Shown: in pieces, positions 7,871-12,529 of the stretch | Numbering within the stretch: the stretch's first letter is position 1 | Layout of the letters: every line of letters starts with the position of its first letter | Assembly (NCBI GenBank): GCA_003136555.1 | Contig: PLEW01000244.1 | Location: 34,114-75,938 of the forward strand | From: Planctomycetota bacterium | GTDB taxonomy: Bacteria > Planctomycetota > UBA11346 | Reading direction: 5' to 3' | DNA: 41,825 nucleotides | Program-made: the position numbers and the translations under genes | The notes under the pieces: generated by a model | What the model was told of the DNA's origin: nothing | The model's database searches: none | The model's input: the letters and a program-made list of their open reading frames with translations, nothing else

Positions 7871-9043
7871 GTGGACTACCTCGTCATCGCCCGCAAATAC
7901 CGCCCTCAGACCTTCACCGAGGTGACCGGCCAGGAGGTCGTGGCGCGCACCTTGACCAATGCGATCAAGTCGCAGCGCGTCGCCCATGCCTACCTGTTCA
8001 CCGGGCCTCGCGGGGTGGGCAAGACCAGCATGGCGCGCATCCTCGCCAAGGCGCTGTGCTGCGAAACCGGGCCGACCACCGAGCCGTGCGGCGTCTGCCA
8101 GCATTGCCGCATGATCACCGACAGCGGGCATCCGGACGTCGCCGAGATCGACGCCGCGCGCTACAATGGCGTGGATGCGATCCGCGAGCTCTCGGACAAT
8201 GCCAGCTTCTCCCCGACCCTGGCGCGCTTCCGCATCTACATCCTCGACGAAGTGCACATGCTCTCGACCTCGGCGTGGAATGCCCTGCTCAAGCTGCTCG
8301 AGGAGCCCCCGGCCCACGTTCGCTTCATCTTCGCCACCACCGAGGTCGAGAAGGTGCTGCCGACGGTGCTGTCGCGCTGCCAGCGCTTCGACTTCCGCTC
8401 GATCGACCTCGATGCCATCGTCAAGCGCCTGCGCGAGATCTGCGTCAAAGAGCAGGTCCAGCTGACCGATGCGGTGCTCTACCGCATCGCCCGCGCCGCG
8501 GGAGGCGGCATGCGCGACGCGCAGACCCTGCTCGACCAGCTGATCGCGGTATGCGACGGCGAGGTCATCGAGGAGGACCTCAACCTGCTCCTCGGGGCAG
8601 CCCGCGGCGGCGATCTCGATCTGGTGGTCAATGACCTGCTGTCGGGCAATGCCAGCGCCGCTATCGAGACGCTCGATCGCATCGTCGCTGGCGGGGTGGC
8701 GCCGACGACCTTCCTCGAACAGCTCATCGATCACGCCCGCACCGTGCTGCTGGTGCAGGCCTGCGGGAGGGAATCGCCGGCCGTCCGCCGCCTCGGCACC
8801 TGCACGCCCGCCCTCGAGGCCCAGGCCAAGCTGGCCACCCCCGAGAAGACCATGCGCACCTGCCAGATCCTCATCGGCAGCCAATTGGCGCTGCGCCAGG
8901 GAGCCGACCCGCGCTTGCAGCTCGAGCTCTCCTTCGTCCGCATCGCCGGACTCGGGCAGCTGCTGGATGCCGACACCCTGCTGCGCCGCATCGAGCGCCT
9001 GGAAAGCGCGCCGGCAGGAGCGTCTGCTCCGCACCCCCGGTAG
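7871..9043 (+). CDS. dnaX: DNA polymerase III subunit gamma/tau, zero-frame (gamma-length, 390 aa) product
   Basis: GTG start, YLVIARKYRPQTF, Walker A GPRGVGKTS, Zn module C..PCGVCQHC, DEVHML, LLKLLEEPP, SRCQRF and GGMRDA; ends at TAG 9041-9043. Confidence 0.95.
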   Translation: MDYLVIARKYRPQTFTEVTGQEVVARTLTNAIKSQRVAHAYLFTGPRGVGKTSMARILAKALCCETGPTTEPCGVCQHCRMITDSGHPDVAEIDAARYNGVDAIRELSDNASFSPTLARFRIYILDEVHMLSTSAWNALLKLLEEPPAHVRFIFATTEVEKVLPTVLSRCQRFDFRSIDLDAIVKRLREICVKEQVQLTDAVLYRIARAAGGGMRDAQTLLDQLIAVCDGEVIEEDLNLLLGAARGGDLDLVVNDLLSGNASAAIETLDRIVAGGVAPTTFLEQLIDHARTVLLVQACGRESPAVRRLGTCTPALEAQAKLATPEKTMRTCQILIGSQLALRQGADPRLQLELSFVRIAGLGQLLDADTLLRRIERLESAPAGASAPHPR

Positions 9044-9076
9044 GGCCGGGACCGTCCCCGTCACGGTCACCGGCCC
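9016..9076 (+). other. Putative programmed -1 recoding signal in dnaX
   Basis: SD-like AGGAG at 9016-9020; C run at 9034-9038 (CAC CCC CGG TAG); hairpin GGGCCGG-GACCGT / ACGGTC-A-CCGGCCC at 9043-9076. Confidence 0.65.
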
Positions 9077-9630
9077 GCACCGAACTCCCCTCCGAGCATC
9101 ATCCTTCCGCGGCGCGCCAGGGAGAGGGCGCCCCTGCCTGGCCGCTCACCCAGCAGGCCGACGCTGCGCCAGCCGCTCCCAGCCCGGCCGCGCCAGCCTC
9201 GTCGCCACGTCCAGCCGAGCTGGCCCCCCAGGCCCTGCTGAGCCTGCTGCAGAGCCGTTGGGGTGAACTGGCCCGCAACGCGATGCGCGATGGCCAGGTG
9301 AGCCTCGCCGCAGCACTCACCGACAGCGCGCCGGTGGCGCTCGCGGGCGACCTGCTGACCGTCGAGCTGCCGGCCCCCTTCTGCGCCCAGCTGACCATCC
9401 GTCCCGACATGACCCAGCAGTTCGAGGCCGTGCTGCAGGCGGTCGCCGGACGACGGCTGCGGGTGGTCGGCCGTCCGCGCAAGGGCCAGGCGGGCGATGA
9501 GCGCACTGACCGCTACCGCCAGGCGCAGGATCATCCCCTCGTGCAGCTGCTGATGAAGCGCTTCGAGGCGGACATCGTGGCGCGCGAGATCATCCCCACC
9601 GAAGAATGGCTCAGGCGCATGCAGTCCTAA
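9034..9630 (+). CDS. dnaX: Tau-specific C-terminal extension of DnaX, encoded in the -1 frame
   Basis: The -1 frame is open across the gamma stop. It encodes a Pro/Ala linker, then LQSRWGELARNAM...LAAAL....VALAGDLLTVELP and AQDHPLVQLLMKRFEADIV, typical of DnaX C-termini; TAA at 9628-9630. Confidence 0.8.
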   Translation, partial: PPVGPGPSPSRSPARTELPSEHHPSAARQGEGAPAWPLTQQADAAPAAPSPAAPASSPRPAELAPQALLSLLQSRWGELARNAMRDGQVSLAAALTDSAPVALAGDLLTVELPAPFCAQLTIRPDMTQQFEAVLQAVAGRRLRVVGRPRKGQAGDERTDRYRQAQDHPLVQLLMKRFEADIVAREIIPTEEWLRRMQS

Positions 9631-9763
9631 TGGCGTACCGGCAGCCGGTCGTCAATGTCACACGCATGAGCATGGGGCGTTGCTCGATGTCGCATGGCGA
9701 CGAAATGTCCATGGCCCATCCGACATACTCTCCTAGCATCGCCCGCCAGCGGACCATCTTCCC

Positions 9764-12529
9764 ATGAAGCCAGAGCCTATCAGCGTGGATGCTCCCATCC
9801 GTCGCGATGAGACCTCCGAACTCATGGGCCAGGGCGGAACCTACCTCCGCCAGCCAACCCAGATCGGACCCTACAAGATCATCCGCGTCATCGGACGCGG
9901 GGGAATGGGGACGGTGTACCGGGCACAGGTCGTCGTTTCTTGCGAAGTGCCTATCGGGCAGGAAGTTGCGATAAAGCTTCTGCGCGAGACCGAGGAGAAG
10001 GAACGACTGCGTTTCGCACGCGAGGCCGGCTACCTCCAGGCGCTGCGGCATCCGGGGATTGTGCGCGTACTGGATGCTGGTGAATTCGAAGGCCAGCCCT
10101 ATCTGGTGATGCAGCTCGTCGAGGGCGGCCATGCCGACGACCTGCTGGTGCCGGGCAAGCCTTTGGACGAGCAGCGGGTGGCCGATCTGGCCATCCAGGC
10201 ACTCGAGGCGCTCCAGGTGGCCCACCTAGCCGGCATCCTGCATCGCGATATCAAGCCGGGCAACATCATGATCACCCCGTCGGGCCAGGTGAAGCTGGTC
10301 GATTTCGGCCTGGCCCAGTACATGGACGCCGAATCGCATCTGACCGCCACCGGGGCAGTGGTCGGCACCCCCGCCTACATGAGCCCGGAACAGGCTGCCG
10401 GACGGCGCAACGAGGTGGGCCGGCGCTCCGACGTCTACAGCATGGGCGCATGCCTCTATGAGCTGGTGACCGGCCAGCAGCCGTTCACTGCGGACAACTC
10501 GGTCGCCTTGCTGCGCCGCATCATCGAGGAGCCGCTGGTGCCGCCCTCGCAGCTGCGCAAGGACCTCCACCGCGATCTCGAGACCGTGATCCTCAAGGCG
10601 ATGGCGAAGGATTACCGCGACCGCTATGAGAGCGCCGAGGCGATGGCCGCCGACCTGCGCCGCTTCCGCCTGGGCGTGCGCATCCGTACCGGGCGTCCTG
10701 GCACCCTGCTGCCCTTCTTGCGCACCGCCTGGCACCACCGCAGCACCATTGCCGGCCTCGGGCTGCTGCTGTTCGTTTCGGCCTCCCTGGCGACCCTGAT
10801 GGTGGTCCAGGGCCTCAAACGGGCGAAGGCGCAGAACTCCAGCCCGAGCCCCGTCCTGACCACCACCGAGAAGCCTCCGGAGGACGATCCCTCGCCTTCC
10901 GATCCGTGGGTCGCGACCTTCAAACAGGCTGAAGCGCTCGATAACCCGAAGAGCGCCCTGAAGATCAAGCCCGCACCGACCTTCGGCAAGGACGCGGTCC
11001 GGACCGAGACCATCAAGCGGGTGAGCGGCTCGGTGCGGCTCTCGGTCAACATCGAGCTGCGCGACGTCAACTTCCTGGTCGAATTGATGATCAACGACCG
11101 CGACATCGGCCGCGGATACCGCCTACGGCTGATCGGCAGCAAGAACAACGACCGTCTCGAACTGCTGCGCGAGAAGCGGGTGGTCACCAGCCGCGACCTC
11201 GGTCAGCTGTCGCGCGGGCAGACCATGCGCATGACCATCGAGCGCAACGACAACACCATCATCGGCCTGATCGGCAAGCGCGAGCCGCTGCGCCTGCCCG
11301 ACCTGGTGCCCATCGAGGGCGAGAACGCCTCGGGCGTCTACATCGCCTATGTCCCCGGTGAGGTGCGCATCAGCGACATCCAGCTCGACCGCCAGCGCAG
11401 CACCCTGTTCATCAGCGCCCTGGAGCTGGCCGACAACGAGCGCCAGGAGAACAACTTCGGCCTGGCGAAGGAGAAGTACGAGGAGTTCCTCCATGATCAC
11501 CCCCAGTCGCCGCAGGTGCGTGACGCCCAGCTGCGCATCGGGCTGTGCCTCGAGGCGATGGACAATCCGCTGGCCTACGAGCAGGCGCTCAACACCTTCA
11601 TCGAGGTGGCCTCGGCCAATCGCGACGATCCGCGCTACGTCCTCACCGCCACCGTGCATGCCTGGAGCTGCGCCCTGCGCCTGGGGCGCTACGAGGAGGC
11701 AGAGGAGTTCTTCGATGCCGTGCGCCGCGACAACGACCTCAGCACCGTCCTGGCCACCGTCTCGGAGGCGATGATCCAGGACCTGGTCAAGGACTACCTC
11801 ACCAGGGCCAGCACCATCGCAGCCGCGGAACCTGAGCGGGCGGTAAAGCTGTACACCGATGGCGCGGAGATCGCCACCTACCTCAAGCAGACCGACGCGG
11901 CGGGCCTGGCGGAGACCGCCGCCGGCGACATCCTGATGTCCCTCAATCGCAGCAACGACGCGCTCGAGCGCTACCGCGCGGTCAGCAGCAACATGGAGCT
12001 GCCCGTGCCGTTGCGCATGAAGGCCCTGCTCAAGGTGGCGGAGGCGGAGCGCATGCGCGACCATCTGGAAGCCGCCGAGATCGCCTACGAGGTGATCCTG
12101 TCGCATCCGCAGCCGGTCGAGGACTACCAGTCCCAAGCGCGTCTCTGGCTCGGCGACATCTATGCGCAGAAGGGCGATACCGCCGGTGCGCTCGCCTGCT
12201 GGGGAAAATCGAAGGAGGACAAGAGCCTGGCCGGCATGATCATGCGCCACATGCTCAACGGCGAGGTGCCCATGCCCACCGGCGATGACCGTTTCCACGC
12301 CAATGATATCGAGTACTTCAATGCCCGCCTCGCCCTGCTGCGCGGCCATCCGGAGCAGTTCCTCGAACGTCTGCAGCACGTCGTCGACATGGGCCCGGCA
12401 AATGATTGGCCGTCACCCTTCGCCCAGCACCTCCTGCAAGTGCTCCAGAGCGGTCGCAGCGAGGCCGATGTCGAGGCCCACCCCTCTCCGGCAGCCGAAT
12501 CCAGCGAGATCGCCCAGCCGGTGCCCTAG
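9764..12529 (+). CDS. Membrane-anchored Ser/Thr protein kinase with an extracytoplasmic beta-rich domain and TPR repeats
   Basis: GRGGMG, VAIK, HRDIKPGN, DFG and GTPAYMSPEQ; TM segment IAGLGLLLFVSASLATLMVV; TPR-like repeats (AKEKYEEFLHDHPQSPQVRDAQLRIGLCL and others). Confidence 0.9.
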   Translation: MKPEPISVDAPIRRDETSELMGQGGTYLRQPTQIGPYKIIRVIGRGGMGTVYRAQVVVSCEVPIGQEVAIKLLRETEEKERLRFAREAGYLQALRHPGIVRVLDAGEFEGQPYLVMQLVEGGHADDLLVPGKPLDEQRVADLAIQALEALQVAHLAGILHRDIKPGNIMITPSGQVKLVDFGLAQYMDAESHLTATGAVVGTPAYMSPEQAAGRRNEVGRRSDVYSMGACLYELVTGQQPFTADNSVALLRRIIEEPLVPPSQLRKDLHRDLETVILKAMAKDYRDRYESAEAMAADLRRFRLGVRIRTGRPGTLLPFLRTAWHHRSTIAGLGLLLFVSASLATLMVVQGLKRAKAQNSSPSPVLTTTEKPPEDDPSPSDPWVATFKQAEALDNPKSALKIKPAPTFGKDAVRTETIKRVSGSVRLSVNIELRDVNFLVELMINDRDIGRGYRLRLIGSKNNDRLELLREKRVVTSRDLGQLSRGQTMRMTIERNDNTIIGLIGKREPLRLPDLVPIEGENASGVYIAYVPGEVRISDIQLDRQRSTLFISALELADNERQENNFGLAKEKYEEFLHDHPQSPQVRDAQLRIGLCLEAMDNPLAYEQALNTFIEVASANRDDPRYVLTATVHAWSCALRLGRYEEAEEFFDAVRRDNDLSTVLATVSEAMIQDLVKDYLTRASTIAAAEPERAVKLYTDGAEIATYLKQTDAAGLAETAAGDILMSLNRSNDALERYRAVSSNMELPVPLRMKALLKVAEAERMRDHLEAAEIAYEVILSHPQPVEDYQSQARLWLGDIYAQKGDTAGALACWGKSKEDKSLAGMIMRHMLNGEVPMPTGDDRFHANDIEYFNARLALLRGHPEQFLERLQHVVDMGPANDWPSPFAQHLLQVLQSGRSEADVEAHPSPAAESSEIAQPVP

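What the first reader, a model, noticed from the sequence alone, without database searches (positions are those of the whole stretch)
9016..9630. dnaX with inverted recoding logic: gamma is the default product and tau needs a -1 shift at a C-run signal
Seen: the zero frame stops at ...CCG CAC CCC CGG TAG (9043), right after the clamp-loader domains (390 aa). The -1 frame is open across this stop and encodes a Pro/Ala linker plus a typical tau C-terminal domain (about 586 aa if joined). Three features surround the junction: AGGAG 13 nt upstream of a C_CCC tetramer (9034-9037), the C5 run itself, and a 13-bp GC hairpin starting 5 nt downstream of the tetramer (9043-9076). Known: E. coli dnaX uses SD + A_AAA_AAG + hairpin to shift OUT of tau and make gamma, while T. 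thermophilus uses transcriptional slippage. Inference: this locus has the same three-part architecture, but with a proline-codon C-run and opposite polarity, so the normally essential tau would depend on recoding. I do not know of this motif being described for dnaX.
Basis: partly seen in the sequence, partly recalled or inferred. Interest (0 to 1): 0.85.

Follow-up and report, generated by a model that had tools for sequence, protein, structure and literature searches.

The report
Frameshift-dependent tau in planctomycete dnaX
In a whole uncultured class of Planctomycetota the replication gene dnaX stops after the clamp-loader core, and the polymerase-binding tail (tau) can be made only if the ribosome slips back one base at a conserved C_CCN site just before a conserved RNA hairpin. 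This reversed layout is already in print for other bacteria, but with a different slip signal.

Summary
The zero frame of dnaX (7871-9043) ends at TAG after 390 aa. The -1 frame is open across that stop and encodes 198 more residues.

It is not an assembly error. Of 44 genomes of the same class with a dnaX match, 43 have an assembled junction, and all 43 show the same break. Each has an in-frame C_CCN, a stop 0, 3 or 12 nt later, and a GC hairpin starting 5-6 nt after the CCN with compensatory changes. The C-terminal part is always in the -1 frame. Two DNA assemblies and two RNA contigs show no indel at the C run.

The -1 extension is homologous to the C-terminus of uninterrupted DnaX proteins of the phylum. 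Its terminal motif is predicted to bind the Pol III alpha C-terminal domain.

Best reading (0.8): programmed -1 ribosomal frameshifting on a Z_ZZN-type tetramer, with gamma as the default product and tau as the recoded one.

The reversed polarity is not new (Antonov 2013; Atkins 2016). My searches did not find the C_CCY tetramer plus hairpin described for dnaX, nor its fixation in a class. No protein or ribosome-profiling evidence exists, and the efficiency is unknown. Verdict: new variant of a known kind.

The parts
7871..9043 (+). dnaX zero-frame ORF: GTG start, 390 aa, TAG stop. It holds clamp-loader domains I-III and is the gamma-like default product.
   Evidence: Translation. Pfam PF13177 (E 2.1e-46), PF22608 and PF12169. 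It is the only full-length dnaX in the genome.
9016..9020 (+). SD-like AGGAG, 13 nt upstream of the slip tetramer; a possible upstream stimulator.
   Evidence: Sequence. A 4-nt SD core lies in the -20..-5 window in 19 of 42 relatives, against 8.6% of background windows. Spacing is mostly 10-14 nt.
9034..9037 (+). C_CCC slip tetramer (Z_ZZN type). tRNA-Pro on CCC 9035-9037 can re-pair on CCC 9034-9036.
   Evidence: An in-frame C_CCN is invariant in 43 of 43 assessable genomes: CCCT 28, CCCC 12, CCCG 2, CCCA 1.
9038..9042 (+). 5-nt spacer between the tetramer and the first paired base. It holds the CGG codon and the first two bases of the stop.
   Evidence: The GG(C/U)CG stem starts 5-6 nt after the CCN in all 42 loci, whether the stop lies 0, 3 or 12 nt after the CCN.
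9041..9043 (+). Zero-frame TAG stop that ends gamma one codon after the slip codon.
   Evidence: In relatives the stop lies 0 nt (10), 3 nt (32) or 12 nt (1) after the CCN; TAG 32, TGA 6, TAA 5.
9043..9076 (+). GC-rich hairpin: 7 bp, an A bulge, then 5-6 bp. Inferred downstream frameshift stimulator.
   Evidence: Folds. There are 41 distinct hairpin sequences in 42 loci. On 25 CM-aligned sequences, 96.2% of cells pair and 7 of 12 pairs carry compensatory changes; 0 of 500 shuffles reach the covariation score.
9034..9630 (+). -1-frame extension: 198 aa plus TAA 9628-9630, the tau-specific part. Pro/Ala-rich linker about 9034-9225. Folded middle domain about 9226-9477. Conserved terminal motif about 9502-9624.
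   Evidence: Translation. hhalign against the C-termini of uninterrupted DnaX gives 95.1%, E 3.2e-8. AF2 pLDDT is 89-97 for residues 61-150. The middle domain resembles DnaA domain I. The terminal motif is predicted to contact the Pol III alpha C-terminal domain.

Best explanation
This is the single dnaX gene of an uncultured class-level lineage of Planctomycetota, and it is built for programmed -1 ribosomal frameshifting.

Standard decoding ends at TAG 9041-9043. It yields a 390-aa gamma-like clamp-loader subunit that lacks the polymerase- and helicase-binding tail.

A fraction of ribosomes slips back one base on the tetramer C_CCC (9034-9037), so that tRNA-Pro re-pairs from CCC/CCU to the overlapping CCC. 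A GC hairpin beginning 5 nt downstream stimulates the slip. In this genome and about half of its relatives an SD-like AGGAG 10-14 nt upstream probably helps too. Those ribosomes read on in the -1 frame for 197 more codons and make a 586-aa tau. The conserved C-terminal motif of tau binds the C-terminal domain of Pol III alpha.

Gamma is therefore the default product and the essential tau is the recoded one, so the tau:gamma ratio is set by frameshift efficiency.

Shown here: the anatomy, its conservation, the hairpin covariation and the homology of the extension. Inferred: that the shift is ribosomal, that it occurs at C_CCN, and that it is efficient enough to supply tau.
For: (1) There is one dnaX in the genome. 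The other two matches are 34% identical over residues 15-186 and 42% over 8-72.

(2) The class equals one order and one family, with 48 species genomes, all MAGs; 44 have a dnaX match. The junction is assembled in 43 of them. All 43 have the zero-frame stop at about residue 380-400 and the C-terminal part in the -1 frame. Amino-acid identity to the window ranges from 62% to 88%.

(3) An in-frame C_CCN is invariant in 43 of 43. The hairpin starts 5-6 nt after it in all 42 folded loci, even where the stop lies 0 or 12 nt after the CCN instead of 3.

(4) The hairpin covaries. There are 41 distinct sequences in 42 loci. On 25 CM-aligned sequences 96.2% of cells pair, against 79.6% in shuffles and 30-53% with the partner slid; 7 of 12 pairs carry double changes; 0 of 500 shuffles reach the covariation score.

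(5) The shift window is narrow: in L026 the -1 frame opens only 22 nt before the stop.

(6) The -1 extension stays open from the slip site to a conserved terminal motif in all 39 complete loci, although the linker makes the extension vary from 61 to 241 aa.

(7) The extension is homologous to the C-terminus of uninterrupted DnaX of the phylum (hhalign 95.1%, E 3.2e-8).

(8) A model of the complex places extension residues 160-197 on residues 285-337 and 356-357 of the 380 C-terminal residues of alpha that were sent. Score 0.66 against a best control of 0.01. That mark was reached by 58 of 80 solved complexes and 2 of 110 mismatched pairs. The runs agree in at least 94% of contacts and the partner's pLDDT is at least 77. 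Alpha-tau complexes have been solved, so this pass may reflect likeness.

(9) C_CC.U and C_CC.C are among the six Z_ZZ.N tetramers that shift -1 in E. coli with a downstream structure (Sharma 2014, passages read).

(10) Two RNA contigs from two studies cross 9034-9038 with no difference and no gap.
Against: There is no direct evidence for the product: no peptide, no ribosome profiling and no reporter assay.

In E. coli the six best tetramers gave only 0.26-5.6% shifting even with the strong IS3 pseudoknot, and C_CC.Y ranked below A_AA.G and U_UU.Y. An essential tau would need more than that, so efficiency in this lineage is an open assumption.

The SD-like element is missing from 14 (loose definition) to 23 (strict) of 42 loci.

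Taken singly, the hairpins are not exceptional for such GC-rich sequence: z is below -2 in only 20 of 42, and the mean z is -2.2.

The covariation count was made on an alignment fitted to the model's structure and covers only 25 of the 42 loci.

The RNA evidence consists of assembled contigs at depth about 3. Contigs drop rare variants and may derive from contaminating DNA.

All genomes are MAGs and related, so the 43 are not independent.
Confidence: 0.8

Rival explanations
1. Transcriptional slippage: RNA polymerase adds one C at the C run, and standard translation of the edited mRNA gives tau. This is the mechanism proposed for the poly-A type of two-ORF dnaX and shown for T. thermophilus.
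For: The window has five C's in a row. The published reversed dnaX genes are thought to use slippage at A7-A10 runs.
Against: In 28 of 43 relatives the motif is CCCT, and in most loci the run is only three or four C's. Slippage sites are described as homopolymers of eight or more nucleotides (Antonov 2013). A covarying hairpin at a fixed 5-6 nt spacing is the hallmark of a ribosomal stimulator and is not needed for polymerase slippage. Two RNA contigs show five C's, which is weak evidence because contigs hide minority variants.
Confidence: 0.06
2. Two separate proteins: gamma from the zero frame, plus an independently initiated or re-initiated C-terminal protein (for example from ATG 9283) that joins the clamp loader non-covalently.
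For: An ATG exists at 9283 in the window. Some relatives have GTG or TTG codons in the extension.
Against: No start codon is conserved in position. The first ATG is absent from 12 of 39 complete extensions, and L046 has no ATG, GTG or TTG at all. ATG 9283 lies inside the folded middle domain, at residue 84 of a domain spanning 65-148. The -1 frame is open back to the slip site in every locus despite linker length changes of up to 180 aa, which would be unnecessary for a separate gene. Uninterrupted relatives carry the same parts in one chain.
Confidence: 0.05
3. Artefact or decay: an assembly indel in a homopolymer, or a dnaX pseudogene in a MAG.
For: The genome is a MAG of 253 contigs and 86% completeness, and the break lies at a C run.
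Against: Independent per-run assemblies of two DNA runs, at depths 63.6 and 9.5, reproduce the stretch with no indel, although these runs may be the source of this DNA; 17 DNA runs hold all sampled words. The same frame break at the same codon occurs in 43 of 43 assessable genomes of 17 genera, with different nucleotide sequences. It is the only dnaX in the genome, and the extension is under clear protein-level conservation.
Confidence: 0.01
4. The -1 ribosomal shift happens by another route: a P-site slip of peptidyl-tRNA-Pro while the A site waits on the stop or on the intervening Arg codon, rather than a slip of A-site tRNA-Pro during translocation against the hairpin.
For: The stop lies directly after the CCN in 10 loci and one codon later in 32. 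The intervening codon is Arg in 30 of the 31 tabulated loci, and it is AGG, AGA or CGG in 14 of them.
Against: The commonest intervening codon is CGC (15 of 31), which is not expected to be slow in a GC-rich genome. In L019 the stop is 12 nt away, yet the hairpin keeps its 6-nt spacing to the CCN. Sequence alone cannot separate the two routes. This is a sub-variant of the best explanation, not a contradiction of it.
Confidence: 0.08

Closest known systems
E. coli / enterobacterial dnaX programmed -1 frameshift (SD-like element, A_AAA_AAG, hairpin), as described in Antonov 2013 and Atkins 2016 (passages read)
   Same: The gene is the same and the direction is the same (-1). The shift occurs at the end of clamp-loader domain III. 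A stem-loop follows the shift site, here starting 5-6 nt after it. An SD-like element lies upstream in the window and in 19-28 of 42 relatives, here 10-14 nt before the site. The two products share their N-terminus, and a stop follows within one codon in the frame that yields gamma.
   Different: The polarity is reversed: here the shifted product is the long one. The slip site is a proline tetramer C_CCN that allows one tRNA to re-pair, not a lysine heptamer allowing two. The SD-like element is not universal. No Rfam family matched the region.
Two-ORF ('reversed') dnaX found by GeneTack: 17 genes in 12 genera, 12 of them with A7-A10 runs, for example Chlorobi (Antonov et al. 2013, PMC3711429; restated in Atkins et al. 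2016, PMC5009743)
   Same: There is a -1 break at the DNA level between a gamma ORF and a tau-specific ORF. Recoding is required for tau, and the gamma stop lies directly after the shift site.
   Different: The published signal is a poly-A run, for which transcriptional slippage was proposed. Here the signal is C_CCN plus a covarying hairpin, with no homopolymer of slippage length. That data set held 2 Planctomycetes genomes, whereas every genome of the present class held in the collection I searched is a MAG.
Z_ZZN tetramer -1 frameshift sites with a downstream structure, as in IS1/IS3-family elements and tested systematically in E. coli (Sharma et al. 2014, PMC4066793, passages read)
   Same: A single tRNA re-pairs on a Z_ZZN tetramer and is stimulated by a 3' structure. 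[quoted passage not shown] This matches the observed usage here: CCCT 28, CCCC 12, CCCG 2, CCCA 1.
   Different: In the IS elements surveyed there, the tetramers in natural use were mainly A_AA.G, U_UU.Y and A_AA.A. Here the host gene is an essential chromosomal replication gene, and the required efficiency is presumably far above the few percent measured in E. coli.
Thermus thermophilus dnaX (transcriptional slippage at A9 gives gamma) and Caulobacter dnaX (gamma by proteolysis of tau), as summarised in Atkins 2016
   Same: These are other routes by which one dnaX gene yields both a long and a short subunit. They underline that bacteria repeatedly evolve ways of making both.
   Different: In both cases tau is the product of standard decoding of a single ORF, and the mechanisms are not ribosomal frameshifting.

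Membership tests
DnaX (DNA polymerase III gamma/tau clamp-loader subunit) | AAA+ clamp-loader module: the delta2-type ATPase domain, the lid, and gamma/tau domain III | tested here: met
   PF13177 at E 2.1e-46, PF22608 at 9.9e-13 and PF12169 at 2.3e-10, all above their cut-offs.
DnaX (DNA polymerase III gamma/tau clamp-loader subunit) | A tau-specific C-terminal region that binds Pol III alpha | tested here: inconclusive
   Pfam gives no hit on the extension. hhalign to the C-termini of uninterrupted DnaX gives 95.1%, E 3.2e-8. The complex model scores 0.66 against a best control of 0.01; that mark was reached by 58 of 80 solved complexes and 2 of 110 mismatched pairs. This is a prediction and may reflect likeness to solved alpha-tau complexes. 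Foldseek hits to E. coli tau (5fku_E, 2aya) are weak, E 0.19-0.39.
E. coli-type dnaX -1 PRF cassette | A slippery heptamer X_XXY_YYZ that lets both the P-site and the A-site tRNA re-pair | tested here: not met
   The codon before the CCN is CAC, AAC, CGC, GGC or AGC in 41 of 42 loci, and none of these can re-pair in the -1 frame; one locus has CCC there. Only the tetramer C_CCN is conserved.
E. coli-type dnaX -1 PRF cassette | A stem-loop a few nucleotides 3' of the shift site | tested here: met
   A hairpin starts 5-6 nt after the CCN in 42 of 42 loci, with mean dG -25.4 kcal/mol, and it covaries.
E. coli-type dnaX -1 PRF cassette | An SD-like element about 10 nt 5' of the shift site | tested here: inconclusive
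   It is present in the window (AGGAG, 13 nt upstream). A strict core is found in 19 of 42 loci and a loose core in 28 of 42, against 8.6% and 12.5% of background windows. It is enriched but not universal. No 16S rRNA 3' end was recognised among the hits in this MAG, so the anti-SD sequence could not be checked.
E. coli-type dnaX -1 PRF cassette | The frameshift product is the shorter subunit (gamma) | tested here: not met
   Here the zero frame ends after 390 aa, and the -1 frame adds 197 further codons after the slip codon.
Reversed two-ORF dnaX (Antonov 2013) | A -1 break at the DNA level between the gamma ORF and the tau-specific ORF, conserved among relatives | tested here: met
   Seen in 43 of 43 assessable genomes of the class.
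Reversed two-ORF dnaX (Antonov 2013) | A poly-A run (A7-A10) at the junction | tested here: not met
   None of the 43 junctions has an A run. An A10 run was seen only in an unrelated genome of the phylum, G029.
Z_ZZN tetramer -1 PRF sites | [quoted passage not shown] | tested here: met
   C_CCN is in frame in 43 of 43, and the hairpin is at fixed spacing.
Z_ZZN tetramer -1 PRF sites | Measured -1 frameshifting at the site | not testable with these tools
   This needs a reporter assay, mass spectrometry or ribosome profiling.
Rfam families of RNA elements (4227 models, release 15) | A match to a curated covariance model | tested here: not met
   Only three chance-level matches (E 3.5-7.3, far below the gathering scores) in 8900-9200.

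The most novel reading that the evidence does not exclude
A single-tRNA slip on a proline tetramer (C_CCY) is driven in this lineage to tens of percent by a simple hairpin, with or without an SD-like element. That would be far above anything measured for this motif in E. coli. It would be the sole source of an essential replisome subunit, so the tau:gamma stoichiometry of the replisome would be set, and possibly tuned with growth state or tRNA-Pro supply, at the level of translation. It would also imply that gamma as the default product is itself under selection. This bears on the old question of whether gamma has a function of its own.
Probability: 0.35. Interest if true: 0.75.

Novelty: new variant of a known kind. 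Interest (0 to 1): 0.6.

Why it matters
Tau couples the polymerases to the clamp loader and the helicase, so a cell whose only tau comes from a recoding event depends on that event for replication.

Reversed dnaX genes have been reported only bioinformatically, and mainly with poly-A runs. This case adds a second, mechanistically different signal. It is a Z_ZZN tetramer with a covarying hairpin, fixed across a whole class of uncultured Planctomycetota (43 of 43 assessable genomes).

It gives recoding researchers three things. The first is a natural, compact cassette of about 60 nt in which to ask how a 'weak' tetramer can reach useful efficiency. The second is 41 natural hairpin variants to compare. 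The third is an independent argument that bacteria select for making both gamma and tau.

There is also a practical consequence. Because the frame breaks here, automatic gene callers would be expected to report dnaX in these genomes as a truncated gene plus an orphan ORF; I could not check how databases annotate it. The junction rule found here could correct such calls.

Tried and rejected
RNAalifold on a plain MAFFT alignment of the 42 junctions (A3) found no hairpin, only 3 trivial pairs, because loop lengths differ. I replaced it with per-sequence folding and a covariance-model alignment.

The first CM search with a loose threshold also pulled in antisense hits of the near-palindromic stem and one unrelated hit in L031. 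That alignment (A5) was not used. The stricter run kept 25 sense hits of 42 loci, so 17 loci are not in the formal count.

A genome-wide regex for 'CCCN NNN stop GG[CT]CG' gave 36 hits on either strand without regard to frame. The dnaX site had the most stable hairpin of those 36 (-26.8 kcal/mol). The pattern is too loose to be informative, and I draw nothing from it.

A search for the 16S 3' end in the MAG with three short motifs gave only hits whose context did not look like a 16S 3' end. The anti-SD sequence could therefore not be checked.

tRNA scan: tRNA-Pro CGG (3 copies) and UGG (2 copies) were found and none with GGG. The MAG is 86% complete and lacks other expected tRNAs, so no conclusion is drawn.

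Sequence search of the extension profile against PDB gave only weak hits to DnaA domain I, E 0.012-0.9.

I looked for a second genome of the poly-A type near G029. Its family has 2 genomes, and the other (69% complete) gave no match with a 94-aa query. That case therefore rests on one MAG.

The phylum survey lists only the best 150 of 393 matches. I inspected 10 non-class loci with short open frames and cannot speak for the unlisted ones.

Literature: searches. The search 'dnaX + Planctomycetota + frameshift' returned 0 papers. Supplements were closed, so the 5 non-poly-A genes of Antonov 2013 could not be seen.
Full report
WHAT IS THERE. The window is contig C37 of a MAG with 253 contigs and 86% completeness. 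The dnaX zero frame runs from GTG 7871 to TAG 9041-9043 and gives 390 aa. Pfam finds the delta2-type AAA+ domain, the DnaX lid and gamma/tau domain III in it, and nothing in the -1-frame translation.

The last zero-frame codons are CAC 9032-34, CCC 9035-37, CGG 9038-40 and TAG. The -1 frame is open from 8635 to 9630. AGGAG sits at 9016-9020, 13 nt before the tetramer C_CCC (9034-9037). A hairpin of 7 bp, an A bulge and 5-6 more bp spans 9043-9076, starting 5 nt after the tetramer. The region 9010-9100 folds at -45.3 kcal/mol, z -3.69, and 0 of 200 shuffles fold as well.

NOT AN ARTEFACT. The genome has only one full dnaX. The two other matches are 34% identical over residues 15-186 and 42% over residues 8-72.

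Seventeen DNA runs hold all sampled words of 8700-9700. The per-run assemblies of two of them, at depths 63.6 and 9.5, reproduce 8850-9350 without a difference or gap. So do two short RNA contigs from two metatranscriptome studies, covering 8970-9214 and 8925-9096 at depth about 3. These are contigs and hide rare variants. The DNA runs may be the source of the MAG, so this is modest support.

The decisive evidence is comparative. The GTDB class of this genome consists of one order and one family, with 48 species genomes, all MAGs, in 18 genera. Of these, 44 have a dnaX match at E <= 1e-40. Record titles name the phylum Planctomycetota. I obtained the junction for 43 of the 44; the 44th, G059, ends at a contig edge.

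In all 43 the zero frame stops at about residue 380-400. Wherever tblastn detected the C-terminal part, it lies in the -1 frame: 21 loci and 16 of 19 assessable loci. L104 shows the same. Of the three loci without a tblastn hit, L047 and L048 still carry the terminal motif in the -1 frame, and L033 is cut by its contig end.

Identity to the window ranges from 62% to 88%, so these are 43 different sequences with the same break. They are related, however, and not 43 independent events.

THE SIGNAL. Anchoring the 42 loci on the stop showed one invariant feature: a CCN codon preceded by C, in the zero frame. With L104 the counts are:
- Tetramer: CCCT 28, CCCC 12, CCCG 2, CCCA 1.
- Distance from the CCN to the stop: 3 nt in 32 loci, 0 nt in 10, 12 nt in 1.
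- Stop codon: TAG 32, TGA 6, TAA 5.

The codon before the CCN varies: CGC 16, CAC 9, AAC 8, GGC 5, AGC 3, CCC 1 among the 42. There is therefore no X_XXY_YYZ heptamer. When a codon lies between the CCN and the stop, it is Arg in 30 of the 31 tabulated cases.

The GG(C/U)CG... stem begins 5-6 nt after the CCN in all 42 folded loci, wherever the stop lies. In L019 the stop sits in the hairpin loop. This fixed spacing to the CCN, rather than to the stop, is why I place the slip at C_CCN.

The 42 loci carry 41 distinct hairpins, with mean dG -25.4 kcal/mol and a range of -35.3 to -14.0. Against dinucleotide shuffles only 20 of 42 reach z < -2, which is unsurprising at about 80% GC.

Covariation is the stronger argument. 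I built a covariance model from 9 sequences and it aligned 25 of the 42 loci at E <= 0.013. On that alignment:
- 96.2% of cells form pairs, against 79.6 +/- 1.7% in shuffles and 30-53% when the partner is slid.
- 7 of 12 pairs carry changes on both sides.
- 42 cells carry double changes, against 14.5 +/- 2.7 in shuffles.
- 0 of 500 shuffles reach the covariation score.

The caveat is that the alignment is fitted to the structure.

There is no T run after the stem, so it is not an intrinsic terminator.

The SD-like element is enriched but not universal. A 4-nt core (AGGA, GGAG or GAGG) occurs in the -20..-5 window in 19 of 42 loci, and a looser G-rich core in 28 of 42. Background windows of the same genes give 8.6% and 12.5%. 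Spacing is mostly 10-14 nt.

No Rfam family matches the region.

THE -1 EXTENSION. Translated from the slip codon, the extension is complete in 39 loci and 61-241 aa long. It always ends with a conserved motif of roughly R-Y-x-x-A-x-x-H-P-L-V...F-x-A-x-I...R-E...W. A Pro/Ala-rich linker of very variable length precedes it.

In 27 of the 39 complete extensions, those aligned, a middle domain of about 85 residues lies between the linker and the motif. Extensions of 118 residues or fewer, 11 of the 39, have no room for it; the twelfth locus left out, L008, has a 150-aa extension with a Pro/Ala-rich stretch in its place. The frame stays open from the slip site to the motif in every locus despite these length changes.

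No start codon is conserved. Twelve of the 39 complete extensions have no ATG, and L046 has no ATG, GTG or TTG at all. The window's ATG 9283 falls inside the folded domain. This rules out independent initiation as the general mechanism.

The extension profile aligns to the C-terminal 200 aa of six uninterrupted DnaX proteins of other families of the phylum with 95.1% probability, E 3.2e-8, over 115 columns covering both the middle domain and the terminal motif.

AlphaFold2 on the 27-row alignment gives mean pLDDT 79.7, with 89-97 for residues 61-150. Foldseek places the middle domain nearest DnaA domain I (4tps_D: E 1.7e-3, prob 1.00, target TM 0.75, 82 columns) and then DciA (7ykm, E 0.16). 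E. coli tau C-terminal structures appear only weakly (5fku_E at E 0.19, 2aya at E 0.39). The profile search of PDB sequences agrees weakly (DnaA domain I, E 0.012). From my own knowledge, DnaA domain I and DciA are helicase-binding folds. That fits a tau domain-IV-like role, but this is inference.

To test the 'tau' reading I modelled the extension (residues 60-198, 27-row alignment) with the last 380 residues of the genome's DnaE1-type alpha (C186, found; 28-row alignment). The score was 0.66 in three runs against a best control of 0.01. That mark was reached by 58 of 80 solved complexes and 2 of 110 mismatched pairs. The runs agree in at least 94% of contacts, and the partner's pLDDT is at least 77.

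The interface joins extension residues 160-197, which are the conserved terminal motif, to residues 285-337 and 356-357 of the 380-residue alpha fragment, that is, to alpha's C-terminal domain. From my own knowledge, alpha-tau complexes have been solved, so the pass may show likeness rather than binding. Even so, it says that the part encoded only in the -1 frame looks like the alpha-binding end of tau.

MECHANISM. The best-supported reading is programmed -1 ribosomal frameshifting on a Z_ZZN tetramer. tRNA-Pro decoding CCY re-pairs on the overlapping CCC, and the hairpin 5-6 nt downstream is the stimulator. An upstream SD-like element is an accessory stimulator in part of the class.

Sharma et al. 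2014 (passages read) tested all 16 tetramers in E. coli and ranked them A_AA.G >> U_UU.C > U_UU.U > C_CC.U = C_CC.C > A_AA.A. [quoted passage not shown] The natural usage here (CCCT and CCCC in 40 of 43, CCCG and CCCA in 3) mirrors that ranking.

The same data are also the main worry. Such efficiencies are low for the only source of an essential subunit, so this lineage must do better than E. coli. Nothing here measures that.

Sequence cannot tell whether the slip happens while tRNA-Pro is translocated from the A site against the hairpin, or in the P site while the stop or an Arg codon waits in the A site.

Transcriptional slippage is unlikely. Most loci have only three or four C's, slippage sites are described as runs of eight or more, a covarying hairpin at a fixed distance has no role in slippage, and the two RNA contigs show five C's.

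WHAT IS KNOWN. Antonov et al. [quoted passage not shown] They found 17 genes in 12 genera with a -1 break at the DNA level. Twelve have A7-A10 runs, and transcriptional slippage was proposed.

Atkins et al. 2016 (passages read) restate that 'in many fewer bacteria' tau derives from frameshifting, with the gamma stop directly after the shift site. They mention an unpublished Chlorobium phaeobacteroides candidate with E. coli-like signals.

I found no paper linking dnaX, frameshifting and Planctomycetota: 0 papers, and nothing relevant. I found no description of a C_CCY tetramer signal for dnaX.

So the kind is known. What is new is the signal, the evidence that it is ribosomal in type, and its fixation in a whole class. 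I rate it 'new variant of a known kind', interest 0.6.

DISTRIBUTION OUTSIDE THE CLASS. In a sample of 401 genomes of the phylum, 386 have a match, but only the best 150 matches are listed. The listed non-class matches mostly have open frames above 500 aa.

I fetched 10 loci with shorter frames:
- Six are from one family (f73). They have an uninterrupted short DnaX whose tail goes straight from a linker to the terminal motif.
- Three are cut by contig ends.
- One (G029) has an A10 run followed by the C-terminal domain in the -1 frame. This is the published poly-A type, seen in a single MAG. It could also be a homopolymer error, and no informative relative was found.

The C_CCN type was not found outside the class among the loci I inspected.

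LIMITS. All genomes are MAGs. There is no protein-level, ribosome-profiling or raw-read evidence.

Noticed in passing
L059 / L070 (G029:C238, about 11150-11250, minus strand): A different family (f6) of the same phylum has dnaX with an A10 run just before a zero-frame stop, and the tau C-terminal domain follows in the -1 frame. This is the published poly-A type of reversed dnaX. It rests on a single MAG, so a homopolymer assembly error is not excluded.
   Followed up: partly
window 9226-9477 (extension residues 65-148): The folded middle domain of the tau extension is closest in fold to DnaA domain I (4tps, target TM 0.75) and next to DciA. From my own knowledge both are helicase-binding folds. 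This suggests that the domain-IV-like helicase contact of tau in this phylum uses a DnaA-domain-I-like module.
   Followed up: partly
L020, L022, L023, L038, L039, L044-L046, L048, L050 (extensions of 61-118 aa); L053-L056, L061, L062 (family f73): Several genera of the class, and the uninterrupted DnaX of family f73, lack the middle domain entirely. They keep only a linker plus the terminal alpha-binding motif of about 45 aa, so the middle domain is dispensable or has been replaced.
   Followed up: no
own genome G000 (tRNA scan of all contigs): tRNA-Pro genes were found with anticodons CGG (3 copies) and UGG (2 copies) and none with GGG. If this is real, CCY codons would be read by a wobbling UGG tRNA, which could bear on slipperiness. 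The MAG is 86% complete and also lacks other expected tRNAs.
   Followed up: no
G000:C186:31809-35621 (-) and G000:C99:13901-17584 (-): The genome has two Pol III alpha homologues: a DnaE1-like one of about 1240 aa, and a second whose frame runs to the contig start and holds masked residues.
   Followed up: no
window 9764-12529 (+): dnaX is followed here by a 921-aa ORF that looks like a Ser/Thr protein kinase with a repeat-rich C-terminal half (read by eye from the translation, not searched). In the uninterrupted relatives of family f73 the next ORF begins MPRGFSGMGDL; from memory I take this for the ybaB/ebfC-type gene that commonly follows dnaX, but I did not search it.
   Followed up: no
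window 9043-9076 and relatives: The hairpin is near-palindromic (GGGCCGG...CCGGCCC), so covariance-model searches also hit the antisense strand. The outer stem is also translated as Gly-Pro in the -1 frame, and the 3' arm as Pro-Ala, so RNA and protein constraints overlap there.
   Followed up: partly
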